Shown in pieces: positions 22,379-58,694 of a stretch of DNA of 64,000 nt (position 1 is its first letter; the number at the start of each line of letters is the position of its first letter). The DNA is from a virus. Position numbers and translations under genes: made by a program. Where the stretch lies: IMG/VR virus record IMGVR_UViG_3300003629_000001, one strand, 5' to 3'. The notes beneath the pieces were generated by a model. That model saw only the letters and a program-made list of their open reading frames with translations, made no database searches and was not told the origin of the DNA.

Positions 22379-25303
22379 ATGAGTATGACACTAATCCGCG
22401 TTACCGACCTGATATACCGCGACTCCGACGAACACGGAGTGCTGGTAATCGTATCTGGTCGGGCGCGAAACGAGAACCCCGACGAACAGGACAAGCGGGT
22501 CGCGTGCCACATTACGGGTACGACTCCCTACGCCTTCGTCCCCGACCACGACAACGTGGAACTGGATATAGGCGGTCACGTAGACCTAACGAACGAGATA
22601 CCCGACGAAGACTGGGTGACGCACGTCGAACCCGGTTATCAGGGCTACGACGGCGTGCCGCTCCGACGTGTAGAGGTAGCCGAACCCGGCAACGTCAACG
22701 ACCTGAAAGAACACTTCGACGTTGTGTATGAGGCTGACGTTCCCTACGTTCGCCGCTCGTCAATCGACTACGGACTCTCTGGTTACATCCGTGTCCCCAG
22801 CGAGAAAGTGAGCGAGGTTGGCGGGAGTGAGATTCGGGAGTCGGACGCCGTGACGGTAGACGTGGACGAACTCGAAACCGAAATCGACAGCGGAGAACTC
22901 GAAGAGCAAATCGAACCCCGAGTTCTCATGGCTGACATTGAGGTGATTCCGCCGGGCGAAGGGGGGTCGTTCGAGACGTTCACCGAGAAGGCCGAGAAGG
23001 CGGTCACGGCGATTACGACCTACGACACCTACGCCGAGGAATATATCGCGTTCGTGCTTGACCCCGAAGACGTGGTGGAAGGCCACCGCGTCAAACAGCA
23101 CCTCGCTGACCATTGGGACGACGACGAAATCGGCCACGGTGCGAACTACGAGAAGTACGTCGGTCAGGCTGACATTAGGCTTATCAAGAGTACGACAGAG
23201 AAAGATATGCTCTTGTCGTTCATTGACGAGGTGGAAGAATACCGTCCAGACCTTTTGAGCGGCTGGAATTGGGTAGATTTCGACCACGAATACCTACTCA
23301 ATCGGTTCCGCAATCACTTCGACGGTATCAATGAGCATAGACTGTCTGACATAGGTACTGTCAGCGGCTTCAAGACCAGCGAGAAAATCGACGGCCTCCC
23401 CGGCTTCGACATGATGGACGCGTTCTGTGAGAAAATGACGTTCTCACAGTGGCGCTCGAAGAGCCTTGACTACGTGTCCAAGGAAGAGTTGAACACGGGG
23501 AAGGTGGCGGACGTGTCTATCGGGGAAGCCTACCAGAACGACCGCAATCGCTTCCTCGCGTACAACATAATCGACACGCAACTGCTGGTCGGCATGGACG
23601 AGAAGCACGGGATTCATGAGTTCTTCTACGAACTCGCTGACCTGTCGTCCATCCAGATTTACGACACGTTCTCGGAAATGCGTCTCGTTGACGGCTTCCT
23701 CATGGCCCACCGAGACGACGACGAGATACTTCCCACCCAGTCCAAGAAGGACTTGGAAAGTATTCCCGGTGGGCTGGTTCTCTCCCCGAGTGACGGCGTG
23801 GAAGAGTGGGTCGCGGTGCTTGACCTGAAGAGCCTGTACCCGTCCATCTTCATTACGCTGAACGTTTCGGAAGAGACGCTGACGAAGAACCCCGAGTACG
23901 CCGACTTGGTGTGTCCCGATATGCCAGCCAGCGAAGACGACGTTGGTGGCAAAATCGAAGACCACCACATCAAGTGGGACGTGGAAGAGGGCGCTGTCGG
24001 TATGCGTACTGACGAAGTGGGTGTAGGCGAAGGCGTTCTCCCGAAGTACCTCGCTCTGCTGTTCGAGGAACGTGCTGATAAGAAGGAGATTCGGAACCAG
24101 TACGAACACGGCGACCCGCGCTACACGGTTTGGGACAACAAGCAGAACGCGGTGAAGGTTATCATGAACTCGTTCTACGGAGTGTCACAAAACAAATACT
24201 ACCGCCTGTCTACGCCCATTCAGGGGAGTCAGGGTATCGGTAGTACGATTACCGCTGGCGGACGGTACACTCTGTGGCGAGGGGCCGAAATCGCGGAGAA
24301 GATGGGCTATACTGTCAAATATGGAGATACTGACAGTATTATGATAAGTCTTGCTGACGCCGACGAAGACGTGACCGCACGGGAAGTAGTCGAACGTGGC
24401 AAGGAAGTGGAAGAAGAAATCAACGCGGCTATGGACGACGTAGCCGACGAGTTCGGAGTCCCCGAGGAACACCCGTTCCTGAAGGACAAAGACCTACACG
24501 GGACTGACCGCCACTGTCTTCACTGGGAGTTCGAGAAACTGTATCGCCGCTTCCTACAGACCGGCAAGAAAAAGCGTTATGCTGGAAACAAAGCGTGGGA
24601 AGAGGGTGAGTGGCTTATCGACCCCGACGCCGTTGACCCCGATTTCCCGAAGCCGGACATTACCGGACTCGAAGCCAATCGGGCCGACGTACCGCCCATT
24701 ACCGCCGAGACGCAACGTCGGGTAATCAAAATGGTACTCGCCGGTGCGGAGTTCGAGGAAGTGAGCGACTACCTCTCCGGTATCGTTCAGACGGTGAAGC
24801 ACAACGAGAAGGAACTGTCGGAACTCGGGACGCCGGGCGTAATCAACAAACCGCTCGAAGAGTACCCGAACCGTCCGACGAAGCGGGCGTGTCTCTACAG
24901 CAACGACCACCTCGGGTACTCGTTCCGCGAGGGCGACGACCCGTGGATATACAAGATTCAGGACACTCCGGCCATGAAGCCCGCGACTGACGTGATAGCC
25001 CTCGAATGGTCGGACGAGGAACTACCCGACGGATACGGACTGGATATTGAGGGTATCATCGAAAAGAAGATTCAAGACCCAATCGACCCCGTGGTTCCGT
25101 GGTCGTTCGAGGAACTTCGGTCGGGCCGTCAGGTCGAAGCAATCGACTTGGGTGGCGGCGGCGATTCAAGCGACAATCCGTTCGCTTCCGCTTCCACCAG
25201 TAACGACGACGCTGATACCGATACTGACGACACCGAGGAAGAGTCCGAAGAGGAAGAAGAGAGCGACGACGAGGAAGCCACGAACAACCCCTTAGAATGG
25301 TAG
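22379..25303 (+). CDS. polB: family B DNA polymerase
   Basis: Exo motifs DIE, GWN..FD, YN..D; polymerase motifs DLKSLYPS, K..MNSFYG, YGDTDS, KKRYAG; no intein seen. Confidence 0.97.
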   Translation: MSMTLIRVTDLIYRDSDEHGVLVIVSGRARNENPDEQDKRVACHITGTTPYAFVPDHDNVELDIGGHVDLTNEIPDEDWVTHVEPGYQGYDGVPLRRVEVAEPGNVNDLKEHFDVVYEADVPYVRRSSIDYGLSGYIRVPSEKVSEVGGSEIRESDAVTVDVDELETEIDSGELEEQIEPRVLMADIEVIPPGEGGSFETFTEKAEKAVTAITTYDTYAEEYIAFVLDPEDVVEGHRVKQHLADHWDDDEIGHGANYEKYVGQADIRLIKSTTEKDMLLSFIDEVEEYRPDLLSGWNWVDFDHEYLLNRFRNHFDGINEHRLSDIGTVSGFKTSEKIDGLPGFDMMDAFCEKMTFSQWRSKSLDYVSKEELNTGKVADVSIGEAYQNDRNRFLAYNIIDTQLLVGMDEKHGIHEFFYELADLSSIQIYDTFSEMRLVDGFLMAHRDDDEILPTQSKKDLESIPGGLVLSPSDGVEEWVAVLDLKSLYPSIFITLNVSEETLTKNPEYADLVCPDMPASEDDVGGKIEDHHIKWDVEEGAVGMRTDEVGVGEGVLPKYLALLFEERADKKEIRNQYEHGDPRYTVWDNKQNAVKVIMNSFYGVSQNKYYRLSTPIQGSQGIGSTITAGGRYTLWRGAEIAEKMGYTVKYGDTDSIMISLADADEDVTAREVVERGKEVEEEINAAMDDVADEFGVPEEHPFLKDKDLHGTDRHCLHWEFEKLYRRFLQTGKKKRYAGNKAWEEGEWLIDPDAVDPDFPKPDITGLEANRADVPPITAETQRRVIKMVLAGAEFEEVSDYLSGIVQTVKHNEKELSELGTPGVINKPLEEYPNRPTKRACLYSNDHLGYSFREGDDPWIYKIQDTPAMKPATDVIALEWSDEELPDGYGLDIEGIIEKKIQDPIDPVVPWSFEELRSGRQVEAIDLGGGGDSSDNPFASASTSNDDADTDTDDTEEESEEEEESDDEEATNNPLEW

Positions 25304-36347: not shown

Positions 36348-36599
36348 ATGGTAGACGTTGGGTCGTTCGACATTTCAGTACACGCGCTCCTTCTCAAGTC
36401 TGACCAGTACGAAATACTGGTCGAAGCGAGAGAAGTGATGTACGGTGACAGGGCCAGTGAAGTGTCGCTGGCTTCTGTGATAGCCCTACTGGCACAGGAA
36501 GAGGTAGCGCGAAACAAGGACACGGACACTGACGCACTCATGGACGGCGTAACCGAGAGCGACGTTCCCTACGACGTAGACGAGGAATACCCACGATGA
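36348..36599 (+). CDS. hypothetical protein
   Basis: 83-aa ORF. Confidence 0.5.
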   Translation: MVDVGSFDISVHALLLKSDQYEILVEAREVMYGDRASEVSLASVIALLAQEEVARNKDTDTDALMDGVTESDVPYDVDEEYPR

Positions 36600-36714
36600 T
36601 TACTACAGCCATGTATATGTACGGTGTCATTGTTGGTTACAGTCAACCCGGCCCGGAGATAGGAATGTTTCTTTTCTTCGATATGAGTATGGCCGCTGTT
36701 CTTTCCTCATCGTA

Positions 36715-36903
36715 ATGATTACGCTCTCAATCGACATGACCGAGGAACAGGCCGAGGAAATGGTTGCGTCGATTCAGGACGCACTCGAAGAAGACGAACC
36801 GTGGACACCGGAACTCACGTTCCAACCCGAAGACGCCGAAAACATCCAAAAGAACCTGAAGTTTCAGGTTCGCCACAGCGACCACTACTACGAGAATTTA
36901 TAG
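36715..36903 (+). CDS. hypothetical protein
   Basis: 62-aa acidic ORF. Confidence 0.5.
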   Translation: MITLSIDMTEEQAEEMVASIQDALEEDEPWTPELTFQPEDAENIQKNLKFQVRHSDHYYENL

Positions 36904-36953
36904 TAGCAGAGGTTTTATAACCTTCTACAACCAATTTCTTCCCGAGATAAGAA

Positions 36954-37553
36954 ATGATTGAACTCGGGGACGTGCTTCAGGGCAAACGAGGTGAGCGTTT
37001 CGTAGGCTTAGTGACGGAAGCCGACTTGGAAGAGGTTCGAGTAGCGAAGTTCGACCGTCTCTACAACAACTACCAAGGGAGCGAACAGTTCGAGCAAGGC
37101 TTCATTCGCGCTCGAATCCGTGACGGTGTGTTCCACAAAAATGGACACGCCGACGAACTTTCGGAAGCGGTTGCTACGAGGCAAATGGAATCGGAGTCCG
37201 GTGAGTTCAGTGGTTCTACCGCGTACAAGTTCGACTCTACGGGGACGGAGAGTGTGTATCGCCACCTTAAGGCTGGGGAGAATCCGAAGGCGCTGGACAG
37301 CAACGCGGTTCTGTTCGACGCACACAGTAGCCAGTGGCGGACAGTTGTAGAGGCTGGCTGGCGCTCTGACGGGCTTGCTGACGACCTACTTCGGATGGGT
37401 GACGACTCAATAGAATCCGTCTCTACGGTCGTACAGGCCATGCGAGAAGGGCTGTGGTTGCTCATGACCGCGAACAATGCGACCGTCGCTGATAATCCGA
37501 ACGTGAACATAGACGGTGAGATTGACCCCGAGACGGGGAACATACTCGAATGA
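36954..37553 (+). CDS. hypothetical protein
   Basis: 199 aa; upstream TTTTATAA. Confidence 0.6.
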   Translation: MIELGDVLQGKRGERFVGLVTEADLEEVRVAKFDRLYNNYQGSEQFEQGFIRARIRDGVFHKNGHADELSEAVATRQMESESGEFSGSTAYKFDSTGTESVYRHLKAGENPKALDSNAVLFDAHSSQWRTVVEAGWRSDGLADDLLRMGDDSIESVSTVVQAMREGLWLLMTANNATVADNPNVNIDGEIDPETGNILE

Positions 37554-37933
37554 GTCTACCAGTCGGGTTGGGTGGACTCGTTGATACTGACGAACTCAAG
37601 CCCCCACAGGGTCGCAATACGCAAGGCCCGACTGGTTCGAGAGAGTTCACGACGCTCATGAACCAAATCAACGGAGAAGGGAAGAGCGAGCGCGTGGACT
37701 TGAGCATAGGTGGCTACGTCACAATATCCCTATCACCGTACAACTGGACGCTTTACGATTGCGAGTATCAGCACGACCCGACTATTGAAGAGAATATCGC
37801 TCGCGCCGAGTTCGTTGACGCCGGTGGTCACTCCGAAGCGGTTCTTCTAATTGACATAGAGAGCGGGGAAGTGGTGTCCGTACAGGTAAATCGTCGGGGC
37901 GAACACATGGTCGGTACATATAGTGGCCCATGA
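37550..37933 (+). CDS. IGGYV-motif protein 1
   Basis: DLSIGGYVTISL. Confidence 0.6.
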   Translation: MSLPVGLGGLVDTDELKPPQGRNTQGPTGSREFTTLMNQINGEGKSERVDLSIGGYVTISLSPYNWTLYDCEYQHDPTIEENIARAEFVDAGGHSEAVLLIDIESGEVVSVQVNRRGEHMVGTYSGP

Positions 37934-38274
37934 ACGAGAACCAAATCATCATACTGTGGGTCTTCGGTGTTGCTGTGATATACGCACTCGACTGGATTCC
38001 GGGGATAGTTTATCTCGCCGCTGTCGCTCCCCCAATATTATATCACGCCCGAACCACGTACCCTCGAAAGACGAGCGTGGAAGAAATGGAACACGCGGAC
38101 TCACACTCGGAGATTGAAAATGACGAGGTGACGGTCGATAGCGAGTACACGGAGCGAATCGAACTGGAAATCGGTGGCTACGTCGAACTCGAATGCTGGA
38201 AGGAAGTGCCGTTCAGCGAAGCCAGCGAGGAAGAGAAAGACCAGAAGCCACCTCTTGAGAAGTTCTACGAATGA
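37930..38274 (+). CDS. IGGYV-motif protein 2 (N-terminal membrane anchor)
   Basis: hydrophobic N-terminus; ELEIGGYVELE. Confidence 0.6.
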   Translation: MNENQIIILWVFGVAVIYALDWIPGIVYLAAVAPPILYHARTTYPRKTSVEEMEHADSHSEIENDEVTVDSEYTERIELEIGGYVELECWKEVPFSEASEEEKDQKPPLEKFYE

Positions 38275-38396
38275 CCTACACGTACAAGTCAGAAATCGCA
38301 ATCGGCGGGTACGTTCGCTTCGAGTACGAACACTCGGGGAAGGAAGCGCGTGACAGAATGGGTCAATCGCTGGCGAACACGATGGACGAACTATGA
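38271..38396 (+). CDS. IGGYV-motif microprotein (41 aa)
   Basis: MTYTYKSEIAIGGYVRFEYEHSGKEARDRMGQSLANTMDEL; ATGA overlaps. Confidence 0.6.
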   Translation: MTYTYKSEIAIGGYVRFEYEHSGKEARDRMGQSLANTMDEL

Positions 38397-38515
38397 GGGA
38401 AGCAGAAATCGAATTACAAATAGGCGGCTGTGTTCAGTTCGAGTACGCGTTGACAGCCGGTGAAGCGCTATCCGGTAAGGGGCAAGAACTGGCGGACGTA
38501 ATGAACGAACTATGA
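38393..38515 (+). CDS. IGGCV-motif microprotein (40 aa)
   Basis: MREAEIELQIGGCVQFEYALTAGEALSGKGQELADVMNEL. Confidence 0.6.
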   Translation: MREAEIELQIGGCVQFEYALTAGEALSGKGQELADVMNEL

Positions 38516-38658
38516 AAACAAAGCACGAAACTGTTAACATAAATATCGGCGGATTCATTCGAGTGACCACGAAGCACTACGAACCGGGAGACACAGGAAA
38601 GCAGGTGAGTGAAGCACAGGACACGGCGGCGGATGTGCTGGAAGAGTTCGACCTGTAA
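38512..38658 (+). CDS. IGGFI-motif microprotein (48 aa)
   Basis: MKTKHETVNINIGGFIRVTTKHY...AADVLEEFDL. Confidence 0.55.
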   Translation: MKTKHETVNINIGGFIRVTTKHYEPGDTGKQVSEAQDTAADVLEEFDL

Positions 38659-38689
38659 ATTTGAATCCAGTTCTCTTTTTCGTACCCAT

Positions 38690-38762
38690 AGTTTTATAGG
38701 ATTATGGTGAGAAGCGTAGGACGCGCCCCGACGCTCCCAACCCCCCATAACCGGGGCGCGTC
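38690..38762 (+). promoter_or_regulatory. tRNA-operon promoter and 5' hairpin
   Basis: TTTTATA box at ~38692; perfect 11-bp stem GACGCGCCCCG (38720-30)/CGGGGCGCGTC (38752-62). Confidence 0.55.
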
Positions 38763-39283: not shown

Positions 39284-39787
39284 ATGACAAGGTACGAAGT
39301 GGCCGGTGACTCCTTCCGAAGTACCTCGTCTGTCATTCGGAAGACGAAGCCACCGTTCTTCGAGGAAGCCGACACAGACTCCGAGTTCGGGGTCGATTTC
39401 GGTATCACGCCGGACTACGCCAACGACCAGTTCGACGTAGACGGTGGGTACGCTCGAATGTATGATGGGTCGGCGGCGTGGCACGGCTTCTACGAAGCAA
39501 CCAATACCCTTACTCTCGAAGCCCCGTCCGGGGTCAACTACCTCTACGCTGTGTACGACAATACACAGAACAGTCTCGAATACGAGGTGCTGTCTTCGGA
39601 TTCGCCCACTGGGTCGATTACTGTTAAACTGGCTGAAATCGACGCGGGCGCTCAAGAAGTAACGAAGGTCAACACCGACCCCAACGTCTCGGTTCCCTCT
39701 CAAGGATTCCGTGATAGTTCGGGTGTTCGACAACAGACGATTCAGTACGACGAAGAACTCCGTTCTCTGGTTGTGATTAAAGAATGA
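39284..39787 (+). CDS. putative minor virion protein
   Basis: beta-rich, resembles fibre N-terminal domains ('VDGGYA...YLYAVYD...KLAEID'). Confidence 0.45.
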   Translation: MTRYEVAGDSFRSTSSVIRKTKPPFFEEADTDSEFGVDFGITPDYANDQFDVDGGYARMYDGSAAWHGFYEATNTLTLEAPSGVNYLYAVYDNTQNSLEYEVLSSDSPTGSITVKLAEIDAGAQEVTKVNTDPNVSVPSQGFRDSSGVRQQTIQYDEELRSLVVIKE

Positions 39788-41148
39788 GTGACGCATACGA
39801 ACTCGGTACAGCAGAAACGTTCGACAAATACAGTACCCCATACAATGTTCTGAAGACGGGGAAACAGACGGTTCAGTTTTCCCACGACCCGTCCAAGTCT
39901 CTCACAAAGCGTCGGTATGGGTATTACTCGAATAACGCGTTTTTCGACGCAACGAATATAGCGTCGAACGAACCAAGTGGAACAATCACAATCTCTACAA
40001 CAGCGACCGGGACAGATACCGCACGCATTCGTTCTGCTATTGCTGGACAGTACGTCAGTCAAACGCTGGCGAAGCCGGGTGTCGGTCTTGACGTAGATAG
40101 TGCGAATATCAATTACGACGCTGACGGATACGTGTCTACCTCGCACGGCCAAATCGCTGTTGGGGCTGGTTGGCACGACGGGTCTTCGGGTGGCTGGGGT
40201 GCGGCTGAAAACGGCGGCCCGATTCAGACGTTCCTTGGTCGGGTTTACACTCCCACAGGCGCGGAAGCGGTCTGTATTTCGGACGGGAATCACGTTCACG
40301 GGAGTCCGGTTCCGCAACCCCAGTGGAATCTGGACGACTTGAGTGGGCAAGACGACGCTGATAACCCCAGCGGTGTCCAACTCCGTCCTGACGACGGTGT
40401 AATCAACAACTTCCCCTATACATGGTATGCGTTCGGAGCGCTCTTCGACGGGATTGTCCCACCCGAGGAAGACGAAGAGGTTCTGTCCCACAAGTTCGTT
40501 CCTGACAGTTCCAGTCTTGACCGATCGAATCTGACCCCTATGGTCATTCTGGACAATGACGGAACGGCGACCGCTATGAGCGCTGAACTCGGTGGAATGC
40601 AATTCTCGGTCTACGGAGCGGACATTAAAGGCGGCGAAGGCGGCGAAGACCGTGGCACTGAAATGACTCGTCTGACTGGTACGAACGCCAATGGGTTCAT
40701 TTCCGATACTGTCGTGGTCAACAACGAATCAATCGACGTGAATGCCGAACCCGGTAAGCCAGCACTGGCTGTCAAGCGAGAAACTGGTGTCCGTGACGTT
40801 GCGTTCCGCATTGAAGAACTGGGTGTCGAACCCGATACTAACGTCTATATCATTGCGTGGGACGAGTACGACCCGGCTACAGCACTTGACGGGACGTTCC
40901 GACAGCCGAACAAGCCGAGGAATACTGAAGAATCGCTTCTGGAAGTGAACACGACCTGTACGACCTATACGCCAACGCAAGCAGTTCAGCGTGGGTGGGA
41001 CAAGGTGAAGGGTGCTAACGACGCTGATATTGCGCCAGTGTCTACGACTGACGAGATTCCGATTGACGCTACTCGGGTCTACACGCTGGTCAACGACGGT
41101 TCGGCTGGTGACGCCGAGATACTTGTTCGGGGTATTGAAGGGTACTGA
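39784..41148 (+). CDS. putative virion lectin/ConA-like protein
   Basis: 454 aa, beta-rich; 'QPQWNLDDLSG..NPSGVQL...YTWY.FG' pattern seen in viral structural proteins. Confidence 0.45.
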   Translation: MSDAYELGTAETFDKYSTPYNVLKTGKQTVQFSHDPSKSLTKRRYGYYSNNAFFDATNIASNEPSGTITISTTATGTDTARIRSAIAGQYVSQTLAKPGVGLDVDSANINYDADGYVSTSHGQIAVGAGWHDGSSGGWGAAENGGPIQTFLGRVYTPTGAEAVCISDGNHVHGSPVPQPQWNLDDLSGQDDADNPSGVQLRPDDGVINNFPYTWYAFGALFDGIVPPEEDEEVLSHKFVPDSSSLDRSNLTPMVILDNDGTATAMSAELGGMQFSVYGADIKGGEGGEDRGTEMTRLTGTNANGFISDTVVVNNESIDVNAEPGKPALAVKRETGVRDVAFRIEELGVEPDTNVYIIAWDEYDPATALDGTFRQPNKPRNTEESLLEVNTTCTTYTPTQAVQRGWDKVKGANDADIAPVSTTDEIPIDATRVYTLVNDGSAGDAEILVRGIEGY

Positions 41149-41199: not shown

Positions 41200-41535
41200 A
41201 TGCCCGCCGAGTACGGCTTCGTTGGCGATAGCCGCGAAGAGACGTTACGAACCGAGAAAGTCCAACGCACCGAACTCGAATCTGTCACCATACCCCTATC
41301 AGTTGGTGGTTCAGTAACCCTACAGATTCTCGAAGACGTGGAAGAGTACGTCGGTTCAATTGCCCCAAACAATCACTTCAACGTCAGTGACAGGGGCGGG
41401 TATTTCCGGGTTCGTGTCTACCGCAAGAAGAAGGTCTGTACGGTCGGTGACTGTGCGACGACGGCGGAACAGAAGTTCGACGGAAATTGGCTATGCCCAC
41501 AGCACCTTGATTCATATACAGCGAGGAACTTCTAA
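41200..41535 (+). CDS. VGGSV-motif protein with C-terminal Zn finger
   Basis: PLSVGGSVTLQI; C..C...CPQH. Confidence 0.55.
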   Translation: MPAEYGFVGDSREETLRTEKVQRTELESVTIPLSVGGSVTLQILEDVEEYVGSIAPNNHFNVSDRGGYFRVRVYRKKKVCTVGDCATTAEQKFDGNWLCPQHLDSYTARNF

Positions 41536-41728
41536 CATATGTGTCGGTTCGTGGGATTACCGCACACGTCACAAAGTGCGGACAAGCGGAGATACACTAC
41601 GAGAACGAAATTCTAATACCCCTATCAGTCGGTGGCCGGGCTGAAATCCAGTTCGAGAACATCGACCACAAAAACCTATGAAACAACACTATCTTCCGAC
41701 ACCACACGTCGCTTAACTGACGTAGCCA

Positions 41729-50614: not shown

Positions 50615-50757
50615 TAGTAGTAGCACCCCCTCGAACATAAGTCTTTCCCCATACAGGGATGAACAACGCGGGAAGAAGAATCCGGCTATACTCATATCTT
50701 GTAGTACCCCTATTGGCGAACGCTTTTTAGCCTGTGTTTAGAACCTTATTACAGAGC

Positions 50758-51186
50758 ATGAGTTTCATCCTGACCGACCTTGGTGAAGAATACGTCATGG
50801 AAACGAACACCAATGGCGTCACTCTCTCCGTAGGTCTTTACAACGACAGCACAGACGCCATTAGCGATAGCGACGACCTTGCGGCGCTTACTACCGAACC
50901 CGCTGGGTCGAACTACGCTCGTCAGTCGGATACCTTCGCTACGGCCAGTCTCTCGGGGGACTATGGATTCGACAACGACTCGCTGATTACGTTCGACACC
51001 AGCGACAGTTCACAGACGGTGGACGCGTACTTCATTGTCGCCAACTTCGACTCCGACGTTGCTGGCGACGGTGGAACGGCGTCTGACCACCTGATTGCGA
51101 CGGGAGCGCTTTCCCAGTCGCGGAATCTGTCGGACATTGACACCCTCGAAATTTCCGCTGGTGGCACTGGTGTCAAGGTCAACTAA
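50758..51186 (+). CDS. minor virion/fibre-associated protein
   Basis: 'E..GSNYARQ...NDSLITF...LIATGAL' pattern of small phage fibre-module proteins. Confidence 0.55.
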   Translation: MSFILTDLGEEYVMETNTNGVTLSVGLYNDSTDAISDSDDLAALTTEPAGSNYARQSDTFATASLSGDYGFDNDSLITFDTSDSSQTVDAYFIVANFDSDVAGDGGTASDHLIATGALSQSRNLSDIDTLEISAGGTGVKVN

Positions 51187-51308
51187 CCGCCGTGTCATAC
51201 GGAAATAACGAAACGCCGGTAGAAGGTTTGCCGATTTAAGCGTCAACGAGTCGTATAAACTCCCCACCACGGCTAAACATCTTCCAAACTAAACTAATAA
51301 GATAAATT

Positions 51309-54284
51309 ATGTTTCTATTTGACGGATTTGAAGATGGCGACGTAAATGAGTGGACTACTAATAACTTTGAAGCGAGTACCAACAGAAGTAATAGTGGTTC
51401 ATGGTCAGGTCTTGCTACATATAATAGCGGTACAAATCTCAATACCATTGACGATATACAAGGGTATAGACCGCTTTCTCAAAGAGTCAACTCTGGTACA
51501 TTTACAATAAGTTACTATTGGAACGAGAGTAGTAACGGGAATGGTCACTCGTTCGGTTTTGAAGACTCAAACGGGAATCCGATATGTGCATTGGGTAGTG
51601 ACAACCCACAATGGCTGGTTTTTGATGGAAGTTGGAATACAGTCGATAGCGGTGGTGCTGATTACGGTGATTGGGTTTACGGAGAAGTTACGATAGATTT
51701 TGATAATAACCAATTTGACTATTTCATTTCAGACCAAACATCTACAAAAAGTGTTTCGGGTACGTATAATTTCGCCAATAATGTATCATTAGACCGCGTA
51801 GCGTTGCGGGCAAATAGTAGTAATCGTTATGCGTATATCCAAGACAATACGGATAATAACAACATCGAAGTTTGGATTGACGATATAGAGCATGACGCGC
51901 TCGTATCGGCTCCTTCTACCCCACAGAATCTTACTTCGAGTGTTTCCGGTGATGATATTTCTCTCAATTGGGACGCGGTAAATTGGAATGGGGATAGAGG
52001 GTATTATGAAATTTACCGGGCGGTATCAAGCGGTTCGTCCCGTTCAGATTATACCAGTATAGCCACTGTTCAAGATGGAACGACGAACTATACAGATTCT
52101 TCACTGAATGACGGTGAACGGTATTACTACAGGGTAGACGCCAATAATTCCGCTGGTTCGTCAGGACTATCAAATCAAACGGCTGAAACAACGAGTCTTC
52201 CCGGCCCCAGCAATATTTCTGCTTCAGCGTTAGGTGACGATGTTACTATTTCATGGAATGACAACTCTGACAACGAAGACGGGTTTCAAATTTTTCGGGG
52301 AACCAGTAGTGGGTCACTGTCTTTGTTGGCTACGGTTGGAAGTAATACAACGAGTTACAGTGACAACAATTTGTCGGACGGTGAACGGTACTACTACCGC
52401 GTCGAATCGTACACCGAACACCGGAGTTCGTCAAGTGGTGAAGTAAATGCTCTCACCGGTCTTCCCGCACCCACTTCTCTGTCTCTGAATACGGGTACTG
52501 AAGACCAGATTACTATTTCATGGTCTGACAACTCGGATAATGAAGACGGTTTTGAGATATTCAGGGGAACCAGTAGTGGGTCACTGTCTTCAGTAGCAAC
52601 TGTTGGAAGTAATTCTACCAATTACACAGATAGCGGATTGGCTGACGGTGAACGGTACTACTACCGCGTCGAATCGTACACCGAGCATACGGCTTCGTCA
52701 AGTGGTGAAGTGAGCGGAGTAACGGTTCTCCCAGCCCCGAGTTCGCTATCCACGGCGTCAAACACCGAAGATGAACTGGATTTATCATGGACGAACAACT
52801 CGGATAATGAAGACGGGTTTGAGATATTTCGGGGGACGAGTAGCGGGTCGCTCTCTTCAGTGACAACTGTCAGTGCGGGTTCAACGGCATATACGGATAC
52901 TGGATTGGCTGACGGGGAGAAGTATTTCTACCGCGTCGAATCGTACACCGAGCATACGGCTTCGTCCAGCAATGAAGCGAGCGAAATTACAATTCTCCCG
53001 GCCCCTTCGTCGCTTTCAACGACAACACAGGGAACAGACCAAATCGACCTGTCTTGGACGGATAACAGCGACAATGAAGGAGAGTTCCGAATTGAGCGTG
53101 ATACTGGAAGCGGGTTTAGTCAAATTACTACTGTCACTTCTAATACAATTTCATACTCGGACACTGGCTTGGAATCGAACAGTTCCTACACCTATCGCGT
53201 CAGAGCGGCAACAGTTCATACAACGTCGGGATATAGCAACGAGTCTACTTCTACAACGGATAGATTCGTTGTAACTGAAAGCGGGAATATTACCACTTCA
53301 GTAGGTGTTTCAACAACGTCTACTGAAACCGGAACGCTCCTTTCCCAAACTCTGTTGACAGATTCCACAGCCAGCGTCAATACGCTTACTGAAACGTCTA
53401 CAAAGTTGGTAGGGAGTTCTGTTACGCCGACAACCACAACAACTCAATCCGTATTTGAACAAACAATTTCGCAAGCGGGGGCTGACGTTACGCCGACAAC
53501 CACGACCGTATTCACAGCGGGAACTACTACTCGCTCTACACTTATTACCACTATCAGTTCCGGGCTTGCGAGTCCGATTACAGGTAATTCAGACTCTACA
53601 TTGACTGTTGACGGTAGTATAACGGACGCCACTGGCATTGTGCTATCTGTCGATATTGACGGTTTTGCTCTTGGTGACGCACAAATCACAGACGCGAATC
53701 CGTCGTTGTTGGTGGCTGATAACCTGACCACGGCGGCTTCGGAAAGTGTGGTAACTGGGAGTGTAGCGTCTGTTCAGCAAAATGATGAAATCGGAATTTC
53801 TCGTCCGAATACTGTTCTGACCGAAGGTCAAGCGTCACCACTTCTTCCTTCTGAAGTGGGAACATTAACTGTCATTCCCAGTTTTGTATCCTCTGTCGGA
53901 ACACCGACTACTGTCGAAGAGATAATCACTTCGCTCGAAACCGGTGTGATAACCTCGGCTTCAGCGTCTACCTTCGGGACAAATACAACGACGACAGCAC
54001 AGGGAGAGGCGTTAATAATCAGTGCTACCGGAACACCGTCAACAGCCGGAACATCGGGATTCCAAGAGATTACTGGTCAAGTGACTCTCAATGGAATCGG
54101 TGTTGGTGGGGCTGTCATTTACGTCATTGATACTGAAACTGACAGTATCGTTGGAACCGAAACAACGGATGGGAACGGGGAATATCTTTTGACTGTTCCC
54201 AGCGAACCATTGTATCACGTTACAGTTCAGTACGACGACGGGAGTGAGAAATACAACGCACTCTCGAAACCCTATGTGGACTAA
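51309..54284 (+). CDS. adhesin-like protein: lectin-like N-terminal domain, 5 fibronectin-III repeats, Ser/Thr-rich stalk, C-terminal Ig-like domain
   Basis: five 'P..P..L....I.LSW.DNSDNE.GF.I.R...Y.D..L....YYYRV' units; C-terminal 'ITGQV...GA.I...TTDGNGEY'. Confidence 0.8.
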   Translation: MFLFDGFEDGDVNEWTTNNFEASTNRSNSGSWSGLATYNSGTNLNTIDDIQGYRPLSQRVNSGTFTISYYWNESSNGNGHSFGFEDSNGNPICALGSDNPQWLVFDGSWNTVDSGGADYGDWVYGEVTIDFDNNQFDYFISDQTSTKSVSGTYNFANNVSLDRVALRANSSNRYAYIQDNTDNNNIEVWIDDIEHDALVSAPSTPQNLTSSVSGDDISLNWDAVNWNGDRGYYEIYRAVSSGSSRSDYTSIATVQDGTTNYTDSSLNDGERYYYRVDANNSAGSSGLSNQTAETTSLPGPSNISASALGDDVTISWNDNSDNEDGFQIFRGTSSGSLSLLATVGSNTTSYSDNNLSDGERYYYRVESYTEHRSSSSGEVNALTGLPAPTSLSLNTGTEDQITISWSDNSDNEDGFEIFRGTSSGSLSSVATVGSNSTNYTDSGLADGERYYYRVESYTEHTASSSGEVSGVTVLPAPSSLSTASNTEDELDLSWTNNSDNEDGFEIFRGTSSGSLSSVTTVSAGSTAYTDTGLADGEKYFYRVESYTEHTASSSNEASEITILPAPSSLSTTTQGTDQIDLSWTDNSDNEGEFRIERDTGSGFSQITTVTSNTISYSDTGLESNSSYTYRVRAATVHTTSGYSNESTSTTDRFVVTESGNITTSVGVSTTSTETGTLLSQTLLTDSTASVNTLTETSTKLVGSSVTPTTTTTQSVFEQTISQAGADVTPTTTTVFTAGTTTRSTLITTISSGLASPITGNSDSTLTVDGSITDATGIVLSVDIDGFALGDAQITDANPSLLVADNLTTAASESVVTGSVASVQQNDEIGISRPNTVLTEGQASPLLPSEVGTLTVIPSFVSSVGTPTTVEEIITSLETGVITSASASTFGTNTTTTAQGEALIISATGTPSTAGTSGFQEITGQVTLNGIGVGGAVIYVIDTETDSIVGTETTDGNGEYLLTVPSEPLYHVTVQYDDGSEKYNALSKPYVD

Positions 54285-54287
54285 CCA

Positions 54288-56507
54288 ATGCCTAAATACG
54301 CCGCACCGGACTCGGATAACGTCAATTTCGAGTTAGAAGGGTACACTGAAGCGGTCAGCGACGACGTTGATTTTGAACTTCAAGGAATTACGACCGACAC
54401 CGGGTCGATAAGCACCGCGAGTGCCGATTCCGTTGTCAGCACGGAAGGGGCTACGCTTACCGCCGAAACGACCGTTACGCCAGCCACGGCTACTCCCAGC
54501 GATACAACGTCGGTGTCTACAGCCATTTCGTCGGGTACTGTCACAAGCACAGTAGCAACGACGACCACGGCAACTATATCGGCCACCGCCACACCCGAGT
54601 CAGCGATTACAGCGGCCAATGCGTCACCAATCACTGAAAGTCGGGAAGCGAAAGACAATGGTTCTATTACCACAATTCAAGCGTCTGACATTGTGGCTTC
54701 AGAGGTCGGAACCAAGCAAGCGACGACAGTAGTTACGGTGGCAACGGCGAGTTCCACAACTACTTCGGAAACCGCAACACTTCGCTCTCCAACGAGTATT
54801 ACACCCGCGTCGGCTTCCGCTATTAGTGCTACAGTTTCGACAAGAGCGTCAGTTTTACCGATTCTCACGGGTGCTGACGCGACAAGTAAACTATCGGGGG
54901 AGAGCGCTCGCCAAAGAGTCAGTACATTAGTATCTAATGCGGAAGGAAGCCCGCTGTCAGCCACCTCGGAAACCGCATCCTCACTTGTCAGTAGCCCTAC
55001 TGACGCCAGTGCGACAACCACGGCAACGGGTACGTTTACAAAAGCCCTCGGCGGTGGTGTCATTATTCCCGCAACCGGGAGTTCCCCGACCACTGACGAA
55101 TTTAGTCTTCTCCGTGAGAAAGGAGCAATTATCGACGCGCAAGCGGTTCCACTCTCCGCGCCTTCGACACTCGGTATTACAGTAGCGACAGAACTCGTCT
55201 CCGCACAAGCGTCGTCACTTCAGTCTGAAGACTCGGGGGCGTCCAGTGTCGGAGCAATTCTAACAGACGCATTCGGTGCGACAGACACAGTAGACGAACA
55301 AACGCGTTCGGCTACACAGGGTGTTCTTACGGACGCTACAGCAACTTCTCTGTCCGCTCTCGAAGAAACCCTTGCACTCCTCGCCGGAGATATTACAGCG
55401 GCCAGCACGACGACGCTGGGGACGCCAGCGACGACGAAAGCCTTCGGTGGGAGTGACCCGACGCTGGCAACCGCGACACCGTTCGGCCCCGACGAGTTCG
55501 CCAGTCTACGAGATACACCCGAAATCACGCTGGCAAGAGCGACGACGCTGGCTACGGATACCGCCACAGGTTCGACCGTAGACGGTACAATTACAGCGGC
55601 TACGGCGACTCCCGAATCTCTTGACGAACTCACTCGCTCCCGTGGTGGCGCGGCACTCACGGACGCACAGGCGACAGTAACAGGCGTGGATACACTCACG
55701 CTCGCCAGTGGGACAGACGGCCCTGTCTCGGCGGCCAGCACGACGCTCACGACGACCGAGCAAGGGACGGCACTCACGACCACGGAAATCACTCCGGCCT
55801 CTGCTACGCCGCTCACGACGCTGGAAGATACCCTCGCGCAAACAGCCAGTGCTATCACCTCGGCCAGTGCGACCACGACAGCCACAAGCGAAGCCACGCG
55901 GGCCAGTCCGAACTCGTCGGTCACGTCCACAGTAGGGGTATCAGTGAGCGCTGGGGAACTCGGAACGGCGACCGACCCAGCGTCCATTTCGTCAGCGACG
56001 GCCTCTCCGCTACAAATCACCGAAATCGTCGTCTTCACGCAAATCCCCGAAGCGACGGCGACAACGCTTCAGGCCAACGAAACGACGCAATCAACGGAGA
56101 ATCCCGGCGTTGTCTCGGCGGTGGCATTCGTCACGACCGCACAAGCCCGACGCCCGCCGGTCACTATCAAGCGGACGGTCGAATGGAACCTACAAGTAGA
56201 CCGAACGCTGGCACAGCAAATCGCCGTTACACGCACCCTCGTAGAACACGCCCTCGAAACGCGCACCGTCGAATACCACAGCACGCACAGTCGGACGGTC
56301 GCGGATAGGAGTACGACCGCTCGAACCCTGACCTACACGGCGGAACAGGTACGCACACTCGTCGCTGGAAACCCCGACCGACTACTGAAAGCCACGTTCC
56401 CGACGCGCACAGTCACCGAACCGGTTCTGGACGAAACCCTCGTCTACAGTAGCCTTGACCGGCTTCTTGAAGACAAGCATATCCGACGCACTCTTGAGGA
56501 AGATTGA
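54288..56507 (+). CDS. Thr/Ala/Ser-rich repetitive fibre/stalk protein
   Basis: about 25-aa quasi-repeats '(I/L)T.A.A.....E'; C-terminal 'RT(L/V)' repeats. Confidence 0.7.
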   Translation: MPKYAAPDSDNVNFELEGYTEAVSDDVDFELQGITTDTGSISTASADSVVSTEGATLTAETTVTPATATPSDTTSVSTAISSGTVTSTVATTTTATISATATPESAITAANASPITESREAKDNGSITTIQASDIVASEVGTKQATTVVTVATASSTTTSETATLRSPTSITPASASAISATVSTRASVLPILTGADATSKLSGESARQRVSTLVSNAEGSPLSATSETASSLVSSPTDASATTTATGTFTKALGGGVIIPATGSSPTTDEFSLLREKGAIIDAQAVPLSAPSTLGITVATELVSAQASSLQSEDSGASSVGAILTDAFGATDTVDEQTRSATQGVLTDATATSLSALEETLALLAGDITAASTTTLGTPATTKAFGGSDPTLATATPFGPDEFASLRDTPEITLARATTLATDTATGSTVDGTITAATATPESLDELTRSRGGAALTDAQATVTGVDTLTLASGTDGPVSAASTTLTTTEQGTALTTTEITPASATPLTTLEDTLAQTASAITSASATTTATSEATRASPNSSVTSTVGVSVSAGELGTATDPASISSATASPLQITEIVVFTQIPEATATTLQANETTQSTENPGVVSAVAFVTTAQARRPPVTIKRTVEWNLQVDRTLAQQIAVTRTLVEHALETRTVEYHSTHSRTVADRSTTARTLTYTAEQVRTLVAGNPDRLLKATFPTRTVTEPVLDETLVYSSLDRLLEDKHIRRTLEED

Positions 56508-58283: not shown

Positions 58284-58694
58284 TCACTCAATCTCAATCA
58301 GCGGTTCCTCGAACTGTAAGGAGTCCAAATGTTCTAACTCCCGCGACGTTCCCAGCGGCCCGTAGGCTATCAGTTCCTCGCCCATAGCCAAGAACCAACC
58401 GTCTACCACACCACTGGCGTCGTGAAGGTGAAGTTCAGTACCGCCGCTGTCACCGTGGTCGTGGACGTACTCGGCCCGCTCATATCGTAGGGGTTCGGTC
58501 GTAATATCGGACAAGTCCTGAACCTCTCCGTCCACCGACCGATTGAACAAACCGACCATAGTGGCGTCCGGTTCGTTTACGACCACTTCGACGTAGCCAC
58601 CAATCGACAGGTGGAACGTATGAGTGTGACCGACCTTGCCACTCCCCCGAAGCGCTTCGAGCATTCGTTCGTTCAGGTCAGGTGAGATTGGCAC
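58284..58694 (-). CDS. IGGYV-motif protein (paralog of 37550..37933)
   Basis: HLSIGGYVEVVV ... RAEYV...G vs DLSIGGYVTI ... RAEFV..GG. Confidence 0.6.
   Translation of the reverse strand: MPISPDLNERMLEALRGSGKVGHTHTFHLSIGGYVEVVVNEPDATMVGLFNRSVDGEVQDLSDITTEPLRYERAEYVHDHGDSGGTELHLHDASGVVDGWFLAMGEELIAYGPLGTSRELEHLDSLQFEEPLIEIE

What the first reader, a model, noticed from the sequence alone, without database searches (positions are those of the whole stretch)
37550..38658. Expanded 'IGGYV' protein family, including three unannotated tandem 40-48-aa microproteins
Seen: five consecutive ATGA-coupled ORFs just before the tRNA operon share a hydrophobic-x-IGG[YCF][VI]-x-hydrophobic core: DLSIGGYVTI, ELEIGGYVEL, EIAIGGYVRF, ELQIGGCVQF and NINIGGFIRV. 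Two more copies lie elsewhere: PLSVGGSVTL (41200-41535) and HLSIGGYVEV (58284-58694, minus strand). The three microproteins (38271-38396, 38393-38515, 38512-38658) fall below the ORF-track cutoff and also share a C-terminal helix (GQSLANTMDEL / GQELADVMNEL / DTAADVLEEF). The motif is fused to different cargo: a membrane anchor, a Zn finger, or a 'RAE[FY]V' domain. Inference: it is a beta-hairpin module used as a common oligomerisation or targeting tag, for example a hetero-oligomeric assembly or a diversified set of inhibitors of one host target. I do not recognise the family.
Basis: partly seen in the sequence, partly recalled or inferred. Interest (0 to 1): 0.7.

Follow-up and report, generated by a model that had tools for sequence, protein, structure and literature searches.

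The report
Halovirus beta-hairpin small-protein gene family
An uncultured salt-lake archaeal virus carries eight genes, three of them only 40-48 codons long, that share one short hairpin-shaped motif; the tiny genes are real and conserved, but the family matches nothing characterised and its function is unknown.

Summary
Five ATGA-coupled ORFs at 37550-38658 and two distant ones carry the quoted motifs, and I found an eighth copy at 41541-41681. The strict motif occurs 6 times in the six-frame translation of the genome, against 0.28 in shuffles.

The micro-ORFs are real genes. In three ~88%-identical metagenome contigs, ORF3 and ORF5 stay intact with their ATGA overlaps. Their pN/pS is 0.07-0.22 in frame and at least 0.8 off frame. 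ORF4 is absent from all three contigs, as an exact 120-nt unit indel between ACGAACTATGA repeats.

Similarity between subfamilies covers only a ~20-residue amphipathic GG-turn hairpin. Pfam, PHROGs, NCBIfam, PDB sequences, 1.8 billion representative proteins, IMG/VR and three cultured haloviruses give no match to this module.

One cargo is now identified. The 58284-58694 protein is a divergent member of phrog_17792, the halovirus relative of the Gp80 whisker/fibre monomer of podophage GP4, and the hairpin sits in an N-terminal insertion. The claimed RAE[FY]V domain shared with ORF1 is not supported.

Both AlphaFold models were poor, so no fold is known. The most likely role, a beta-strand docking or oligomerisation module, is inferred, not shown. 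This is a lineage-restricted new small-protein family of moderate interest.

The parts
36913..36920 (+). TATA-like box TTTTATAA about 34 nt upstream of the first gene of the operon
   Evidence: Read directly; identical in metagenome relative L001. Promoter function is inferred.
36954..37553 (+). First gene of the operon, 199 aa, acidic, no hairpin, no family match
   Evidence: intact in L001
37550..37933 (+). ORF1, 127 aa: disordered N-terminus, hairpin VDLSIGGYVTISL, beta-rich C-terminus
   Evidence: pN/pS 0.16 against L001
37930..38274 (+). ORF2, 114 aa: N-terminal hydrophobic membrane segment (residues ~5-38), acidic linker, hairpin IELEIGGYVELEC near the C-terminus
   Evidence: pN/pS 0.19-0.21
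38271..38396 (+). ORF3, 41-aa microprotein: hairpin plus C-terminal helix
   Evidence: 80-93% identical proteins in metagenomes; pN/pS 0.12-0.22 in frame, 1.0-5.9 off frame; helix 26-40 in the AF2 model
38393..38515 (+). ORF4, 40-aa microprotein, paralogue of ORF3; present in this genome only
   Evidence: BLASTP E 2e-10 to ORF3; absent as an exact 120-nt unit in L001-L003, flanked by ACGAACTATGA
38512..38658 (+). ORF5, 48-aa microprotein (64 aa in relatives): hairpin plus acidic C-terminus
   Evidence: pN 0.029 against pS 0.41
38676..38680 (+). T5 run after ORF5 (candidate archaeal terminator), followed by a second TATA-like box at 38692-38699 before the tRNA genes
   Evidence: Read directly; region conserved in L002/L003, where the run is T4. 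Function is inferred.
41200..41535 (+). 111-aa protein: hairpin IPLSVGGSVTLQI plus Cys/His-rich C-terminus (candidate zinc finger)
   Evidence: intact in L002/L003 with GGS changed to GGE
41541..41681 (+).
   Evidence: intact in L002/L003 (3 aa changes among 7 nt differences). Membership is marginal on the motif alone.
58284..58694 (-). 136-aa protein: N-terminal helix, inserted hairpin FHLSIGGYVEVVV, then a phrog_17792/Gp80-like core
50734..51186 (+). Hairpin-less canonical phrog_17792/Gp80-like gene of the same virus, the reference for the cargo domain of 58284-58694
   Evidence: phrog_17792 E 6e-36; PF23140 E 1e-4 to 9e-6, below cut-off; hhalign 97.4% to the 58287 family

Best explanation
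Shown: this is a real, lineage-restricted multigene family of an uncultured haloarchaeal tailed virus (110.7 kb). The virus shares a fibre-like gene with HCTV-1, HATV-2 and HRTV-25. The family is defined by a ~20-residue element: three alternating hydrophobic positions, a GG-x turn, then three more alternating hydrophobic positions. Five members are translationally coupled. The micro-ORFs are under purifying selection. The tandem array changes copy number by unit-length recombination at the repeated gene junction. The element is portable: it stands almost alone with one helix (ORF3-5), it is attached to a membrane segment (ORF2), to a Cys/His tail (41200) or to a beta-rich tail (ORF1), and it is inserted at the N-terminal edge of a Gp80/phrog_17792-like whisker-fibre domain (58284-58694). 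Read from sequence, not tested: the five tandem genes plus a 199-aa gene look like one operon, bounded by a TATA-like box and a T-run. Inferred: the element is an amphipathic beta-hairpin. If the loop is GG plus the next residue, all six hydrophobic positions fall on one face. It most likely acts as a protein-protein docking unit, by beta-sheet augmentation or hairpin-hairpin pairing. That would bring these proteins onto each other or onto one common partner, so the coupled operon products would form one assembly, tethered to the membrane through ORF2.
For: ORFs and motif. Family statistics. Coding status of the micro-ORFs: homologues P0001, P0004-P0007; intact syntenic ORFs in L001-L003; pN/pS 0.07-0.22 in frame against at least 0.8 off frame. 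Copy-number change by a unit indel. Operon signals. Cargo identification. The 58287 homologues from other viruses (32-70% identical) all keep h-x-[LI]-x-[IV]-GG-x-[VA]-x-[IV] while the residue after GG varies (Y, H, T, E), as expected for a turn position. Poor monomer models are compatible with a unit that folds only in a complex. The only fold context available, Gp80-like fibre dimers, is one where partners are held by beta-sheet augmentation (PMC13730344; PMC12609058).
Against: No structure: pLDDT 44 and 53, so the hairpin itself is only weakly modelled, and Foldseek found nothing. No interaction was tested. Similarity between subfamilies is 12-21 residues with single-comparison E 1e-4 to 2e-3, so common descent of all eight copies is likely but not proven. 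ORF5 and 41541 are marginal by leave-one-out. Homology of the ORF5 C-terminal helix to that of ORF3/4 is weak. The two distant loci (41200/41541 and 58284) are not in the operon, so one single assembly is not required.
Confidence: 0.45

Rival explanations
1. The hairpin is specifically a docking element for Gp80-like whisker/fibre dimers, a 'rope in pieces'. In GP4, A1002 and Bas63 an extended rope peptide strings Gp80-like dimers together by beta-sheet augmentation. Here the 58284-58694 protein would carry its own dock, and the other hairpin proteins would attach to, cap or regulate the whisker built from the 50734 and/or 58287 proteins.
For: The only recognisable cargo is Gp80-like, and the hairpin lies in an insertion at the N-terminal edge of that domain. 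Rope-dimer binding by an augmented beta-sheet is documented.
Against: The hairpin profile shows no similarity to the GxG-repeat protein encoded next to GP4 gp80, the rope candidate (hhalign prob 0.09%, no hmmsearch hit). The operon lies beside replication and tRNA genes, not in the structural module. ORF2 has a membrane segment, which is unusual for a virion fibre part. Cultured haloviruses that have the Gp80-like gene lack the hairpin.
Confidence: 0.1
2. The family is a diversifying set of small host-directed effectors, for example anti-defence or takeover proteins. Each uses the same hairpin to bind one host target, and the array expands and contracts under an arms race.
For: The proteins are small and acidic and sit in a coupled array. 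Copy number differs between ~88%-identical genomes. The family is restricted to one virus lineage. The position downstream of the replication module fits non-structural expression.
Against: ORF1, 2, 3 and 5 are under clear purifying, not diversifying, selection. No match to any named family in Pfam, PHROGs or NCBIfam; the PADLOC defence library was not scanned. One member is a structural-type Gp80-like protein.
Confidence: 0.2
3. The motif is a sorting or processing tag like the capsid-targeting sequence shared by phage T4 internal proteins. It would direct unrelated cargo proteins into the procapsid or another compartment and might then be removed.
For: One short element is shared by otherwise unrelated small proteins, several of them encoded in tandem. 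This resembles the tandem T4 internal-protein genes (my own knowledge, not tested here).
Against: The motif is not at a fixed distance from the N-terminus: residue 10 in ORF3/4 and residue 81 of 114 in ORF2. No protease-site pattern was identified. ORF2 is membrane-anchored.
Confidence: 0.07
4. The micro-ORFs are chance ORFs and the motif recurrence is coincidence or a DNA-level repeat.
For: Pairwise similarities are short. The module profile is by construction fitted to its own members.
Against: 6 strict motifs against 0.28 expected, five of them in consecutive genes. Third-codon positions differ between copies. pN/pS is well below 1 only in the proposed frames. The ORFs are intact in three diverged contigs. 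An independent profile retrieves the copies.
Confidence: 0.03

Closest known systems
phrog_17792 / Pfam PF23140 (Gp80, fibre I or whisker monomer of podophage GP4; structural relatives A1002 gp40/gp41, VP1 gp11, Bas63 gp5)
   Same: The 58284-58694 protein and its five metagenome homologues match phrog_17792 (E 1e-5 to 2e-4). They align to the genome's canonical member 50734-51186 at hhalign 97.4%, E 1e-11. The ESM Atlas places the protein among Gp80 clusters (0.93; 27 of 30 hits). Size is similar, ~135 aa.
   Different: It carries a ~25-residue N-terminal insertion holding the GG hairpin, lacks a ~14-residue loop of the canonical halovirus members, and sits on the other strand among small genes rather than next to the LamG/fn3 fibre gene. 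PF23140 itself does not hit it at E <= 10. The other seven hairpin proteins have no Gp80-like domain.
Rope / fibre-dock segments that string Gp80-like dimers (GP4 rope protein, Bas63 collar N-terminal extension, A1002 gp39)
   Same: Short beta-forming segments whose documented role is to complete the sheet of a partner. This is the kind of mechanism proposed for the hairpin.
   Different: No sequence similarity to the repeat protein next to GP4 gp80. Here the segments are on separate small proteins, not repeated in one chain. No evidence of binding.
Tandem phage small-protein sets sharing a short tag (T4 internal proteins with the capsid-targeting sequence)
   Same: Several small, tandemly encoded proteins share one short element on different cargo (recalled knowledge).
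   Different: Position of the motif varies, no cleavage site was recognised, and no link to the capsid. Analogy only.
HicB / UPF0150-like small beta-beta-alpha antitoxin domains
   Same: Superficial resemblance: strand, GGY-type turn, strand, then a helix, in ~40-70 aa proteins (a lead from memory).
   Different: The PF15919 model finds nothing in the whole genome at E <= 10, and Pfam scans of the microproteins are empty. Not a member.

Membership tests
phrog_17792 (halovirus Gp80-like family), for 58284-58694 only | Significant match to the family HMM over most of its length | tested here: met
   All 6 members of alignment A7 hit phrog_17792, best E 9.7e-6. The window protein scores E 2.1e-4 over profile positions 27-141 of 143. 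True members score 1e-30 to 1e-50, so this is a divergent branch.
phrog_17792 (halovirus Gp80-like family), for 58284-58694 only | Profile-profile similarity to a bona fide member | tested here: met
   hhalign A7 against 50734-51183: prob 97.4%, E 1e-11, 82 columns. hmmsearch with A7 gives E 1.6e-10.
Pfam PF23140 Gp80 | Score above the gathering threshold (27 bits) | tested here: not met
   No hit for any A7 member at E <= 10. The canonical 50734 protein scores 22-23 bits, and HCTV-1 and HATV-2 homologues 17-18 bits. The link to Gp80 is remote and rests on sub-threshold HMM hits plus ESM features.
Pfam PF23140 Gp80 | Gp80 fold, dimerisation and attachment to a rope | not testable with these tools
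No multimer tool was available.
GP4-type rope / fibre-dock repeats, for the hairpin module | Sequence similarity to the repeat units of a rope protein | tested here: not met
   A11 against the 325-aa GxG-repeat protein next to GP4 gp80: hhalign prob 0.09%; not reported by hmmsearch --max. The identity of that protein as the rope is my inference from its position and ~10 repeats.
Any curated family, for the hairpin module and microproteins | Match in Pfam, PHROGs, NCBIfam or PDB sequences | tested here: not met
   Exhaustive HMMER over 1.84 billion representatives found only 58287-type relatives. No longer fused forms were found.
HicB / UPF0150 (PF15919) | HMM match | tested here: not met
   0 matches in the genome at E <= 10, while the control genomes were hit.

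The most novel reading that the evidence does not exclude
The hairpin is a portable docking element by which a haloarchaeal virus plugs otherwise unrelated small proteins (a membrane anchor, a zinc-finger-like protein, three microproteins) onto its Gp80-like whisker protein or onto each other. That would be a modular beta-augmentation 'connector code'. In effect it would be the rope of bacterial-phage chain-like fibres broken into separate, exchangeable genes whose number varies between strains.
Probability: 0.1. Interest if true: 0.7.

Novelty: new variant of a known kind. Interest (0 to 1): 0.42.

Why it matters
It adds three verified 40-48-codon genes, and a fourth candidate, to a virus group whose small proteins are almost wholly uncharacterised. 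It defines a short portable module with no counterpart in current family libraries. It also links one member to the Gp80 whisker/chain-fibre family, known so far from solved structures of bacterial phages. If the hairpin proves to be a docking unit, it would give a simple, testable case of how viruses wire small accessory proteins to a common scaffold, and of how such arrays gain and lose units by recombination at repeated gene junctions. If it does not, this remains an ordinary lineage-specific ORFan family.

Tried and rejected
- Near and protein-level searches of the phage collection with the cluster, ORF1, the 454-aa neighbour and the 58287 protein found nothing.
- IMG/VR scans with the 454-aa protein, the ORF3 family, RFC-L, P0011 and a degenerate DNA pattern found nothing. 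The one hit in GTDB genomes was a chance match outside any reading frame.
- AlphaFold2 of ORF1 (pLDDT 43.6) and ORF3 (52.8) was too poor to use. Foldseek on the ORF1 model gave only noise.
- The ESM Atlas for ORF1 gave sub-threshold MoaF-like hits (0.78), which I rejected.
- Three long repeat proteins in the exhaustive search (P0014, P0015, P0017) are repeat artefacts.
- The HicB/UPF0150 idea is rejected.
- The rope-repeat similarity is rejected at sequence level.
- The look-alike VELDIGGHVDL in the PolB N-terminal domain (22568) scores at noise level (6-9 bits) and lies in the ordinary PolB N-domain. I treat it as coincidence.
- A hit at genome 16676-17065 (-) lies in an antisense junk frame.
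The 95-kb contig that carries P0011 could therefore not be read, and the alignment-based locus searches failed for lack of conserved stretches.

Full report
**What is there.**
- The window is the right-hand 64 kb of a single 110,711-bp virus record: IMG/VR, linear, rated 100% complete by CheckV, GC 54%.
- It encodes a tape-measure protein, family-B DNA polymerase, RFC-like ATPase, RtcB and fn3-rich proteins.
- One of its genes has 43-50% identical homologues in the haloarchaeal tailed viruses HATV-2, HCTV-1, HCTV-16 and HRTV-25 (order Thumleimavirales).
- Nothing in the phage collection or IMG/VR is closely related to it.

**The observation.**
- The five + strand ORFs are ORF1 37550-37933 (127 aa), ORF2 37930-38274 (114 aa), ORF3 38271-38396 (41 aa), ORF4 38393-38515 (40 aa) and ORF5 38512-38658 (48 aa).
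- Each start overlaps the previous stop in ATGA. They are followed by tRNA-Asp and tRNA-Glu.
- The two distant copies (41200-41535 + and 58284-58694 -) are as quoted.
- An eighth copy was missed: a GTG-start ORF at 41541-41681, directly after 41200-41535, with IPLSVGGRAEI.

**Is the motif more than chance?**
- In the six-frame translation of the whole genome, IGG[YFC][VI] occurs six times against 0.28 on average in 200 shuffles (maximum 2). Five of the six are in consecutive genes.
- The codons under the motif differ at synonymous positions, so the conservation is in the protein, not in a DNA repeat.
- Leave-one-out HMMs of a 21-residue module recover ORF1, ORF2, ORF3 and the 58287 protein at E 8e-6 to 5e-3. 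ORF4 and 41200 come at 0.03. ORF5 and 41541 are not above noise.
- An independent profile, made only of the 58287 protein and five metagenome homologues, ranks ORF1, ORF5, ORF4, ORF2, 41541 and 41200 immediately after the two Gp80-like genes among 2,535 six-frame segments (E 0.012-1.2; best reversed control 1.2).
- No further copies exist in the genome.

**Are the micro-ORFs genes?**
- A profile of ORF3-5 found five metagenome proteins of 41-64 aa.
- ORF1, ORF2, ORF3 and ORF5 are intact there with the same ATGA overlaps.
- Nei-Gojobori counts give pN/pS of 0.16 (ORF1), 0.19-0.21 (ORF2), 0.12-0.22 (ORF3) and 0.07 (ORF5) in the proposed frames. The two other frames give 0.8-5.9.
- ORF3 and ORF5 are therefore protein-coding genes under purifying selection.
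- ORF4 is missing from all three contigs. The alignment shows an exact 120-nt unit indel bounded by the repeated junction ACGAACTATGA.
- ORF4 is 50% identical to ORF3 in protein (E 2e-10) but only 63% in DNA, with differences spread over all codon positions.
- The duplication is therefore old. The relatives most likely lost the unit by recombination between the repeated junctions, or this genome regained it.

**Operon signals.**
- A TTTTATAA box lies at 36913-36920, ~34 nt before the 199-aa gene 36954-37553, and is identical in L001.
- A T5 run lies at 38676-38680, and a second TATA-like box at 38692-38699 precedes the tRNA genes.
- I read this as a six-gene operon. The signals are read from sequence and not tested.

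**Anatomy of the module.**
- The eight copies share hydrophobic residues at -5, -3 and -1, then G-G, a variable residue, then hydrophobic residues at +2, +4 and +6 (alignment A11).
- The residue after GG is Y, F, C, S or R here, and H, T or E in homologues. This fits a turn position.
- With a three-residue GG-x loop, all six hydrophobic positions fall on one face. That makes an amphipathic hairpin (inference from the pattern).
- ORF3-5 add one C-terminal helix, modelled at residues 26-40.
- ORF2 has a strongly hydrophobic N-terminal ~35 residues (Kyte-Doolittle window mean up to 2.1).
- 41200-41535 ends in a Cys/His-rich stretch. All members are acidic (pI 4.1-5.8).
- Profile-profile comparisons between subfamilies align only the ~20-residue hairpin (E 1e-4 to 2e-3, probabilities 15-52%).
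- The 'RAE[FY]V domain' said to be shared by ORF1 and the 58287 protein is not supported.

**Search for relatives and known families.**
- Pfam, PHROGs and NCBIfam give nothing for ORF1-5 or 41200.
- PDB sequence searches with profiles give nothing.
- The exhaustive HMMER search of 1.84 billion representatives found only five real relatives, all 132-134-aa homologues of the 58287 protein that keep the hairpin. It also returned three repeat-protein artefacts.
- No longer fused forms of the microproteins exist in the 5.8-billion-protein collection.
- The module profile finds nothing in HCTV-1, HATV-2 or HRTV-25, while the same search recovers all eight copies in the own genome.

**One cargo identified.**
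- The ESM Atlas placed the 58287 protein among clusters carrying PF23140 (Gp80, 'podophage GP4 fibre I'), with score 0.93, 196 shared features and 27 of 30 hits.
- PF23140 does not hit that protein directly. It does hit another gene of the same virus, 50734-51186, at 22-23 bits, below the cut-off.
- The 58287 family aligns to that gene at hhalign 97.4%, E 1e-11.
- Both belong to phrog_17792, the family of HCTV-1 gp39 and its halovirus homologues.
- Alignment A12 shows that the 58287 branch is the phrog_17792 core with a ~25-residue N-terminal insertion that contains the hairpin.
- Published structures show that Gp80-like ~140-aa monomers form dimers. These dimers are strung on a 'rope' segment by beta-sheet augmentation, building chain-like fibres or whiskers (PMC13730344; PMC12609058).

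**Test of the rope idea.**
- I read GP4 (MH638294). gp80 is followed by a 325-aa protein with about ten GxG-strand repeats. From its position and repeats I take this to be the rope.
- The hairpin profile has no similarity to it.
- The idea that the hairpin is a rope-like dock therefore stays an analogy without sequence support.

**Structure.** Both AlphaFold2 jobs gave poor models.
- ORF1: pLDDT 43.6, all-beta, with strands flanking the GG.
- ORF3: pLDDT 52.8, with only the helix formed.
- Foldseek on the ORF1 model gave noise.

**Verdict.**
- The family is real, coding, restricted to this virus lineage and variable in copy number.
- Its defining element is a short amphipathic GG hairpin that is joined to several cargos, one of which is a Gp80-like whisker/fibre domain.
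- Function is not shown. I commit to a protein-protein docking or oligomerisation role by beta-strand pairing (0.45). The rivals are host-directed effectors (0.2), a specific dock for Gp80-like dimers (0.1), a sorting tag (0.07) and chance (0.03).
This blocked the most informative comparative step.

Noticed in passing
window 39284-41148; L002 699-2494; L003 1297-3092: The 454-aa gene 39784-41148 is replaced in the ~88%-identical relatives by an unrelated 431-aa gene. Only the first ~12 residues (MSD-YELGTAET) and the upstream 167-aa partner gene are kept, the partner being much more diverged (~68% nt). This looks like a swapped cassette and could be a host-recognition protein.
   Followed up: partly
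window 50734-56507: A Gp80-like (phrog_17792) gene is followed by a 991-aa protein with a jelly-roll-like N-terminal region (my reading of the sequence) plus five fn3 domains, and then by a 739-aa Thr/Ser/Ala-rich protein. HRTV-25 has the same order: Gp80-like gene, 1569-aa laminin-G protein, BppU_N protein. HATV-2 has the Gp80-like gene between terminase and portal. This looks like a whisker/fibre module conserved across halovirus families.
   Followed up: partly
window 41541-41681: GTG-start 46-aa ORF with the hairpin, 6 nt after the stop of 41200-41535, intact in L002/L003. It is a likely fourth micro-gene of the family.
   Followed up: partly
window 38380-38396, 38500-38515, 38640-38658: The C-termini of the microproteins (TMDEL, VMNEL, VLEEFDL) loosely recall the C-terminal tails of PolB, RFC-L and Zn-ribbon proteins (NPLEW, NPMEY, DPLEW, DVLDY). 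An earlier finding of this scan read those tails as clamp-docking peptides. The microproteins end in L, not W/Y, and in relatives ORF5 is extended by 16 residues. Untested.
   Followed up: no
window 22553-22585: PolB residues ~59-69 read VELDIGGHVDL, fitting the loose hairpin pattern. The module HMM scores it at noise level and it lies in the normal PolB N-terminal domain. Probably coincidence.
   Followed up: yes
L011 27948-28925 (-), Ralstonia phage GP4: The 325-aa gene next to gp80 contains about ten repeats of a glycine turn plus a short alternating strand (for example GRIDLTGSG, GSIELSGSG). This matches the ten monomers of five fibre dimers, so it is a likely rope protein. It is annotated only as virion-associated.
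   Followed up: partly
window 36596-36715: A 39-aa hydrophobic ORF is ATGA-coupled between the 83-aa and 62-aa genes just upstream of the operon. It may be another unrecognised micro-gene (membrane peptide). The 62-aa neighbour is conserved in L001.
   Followed up: no
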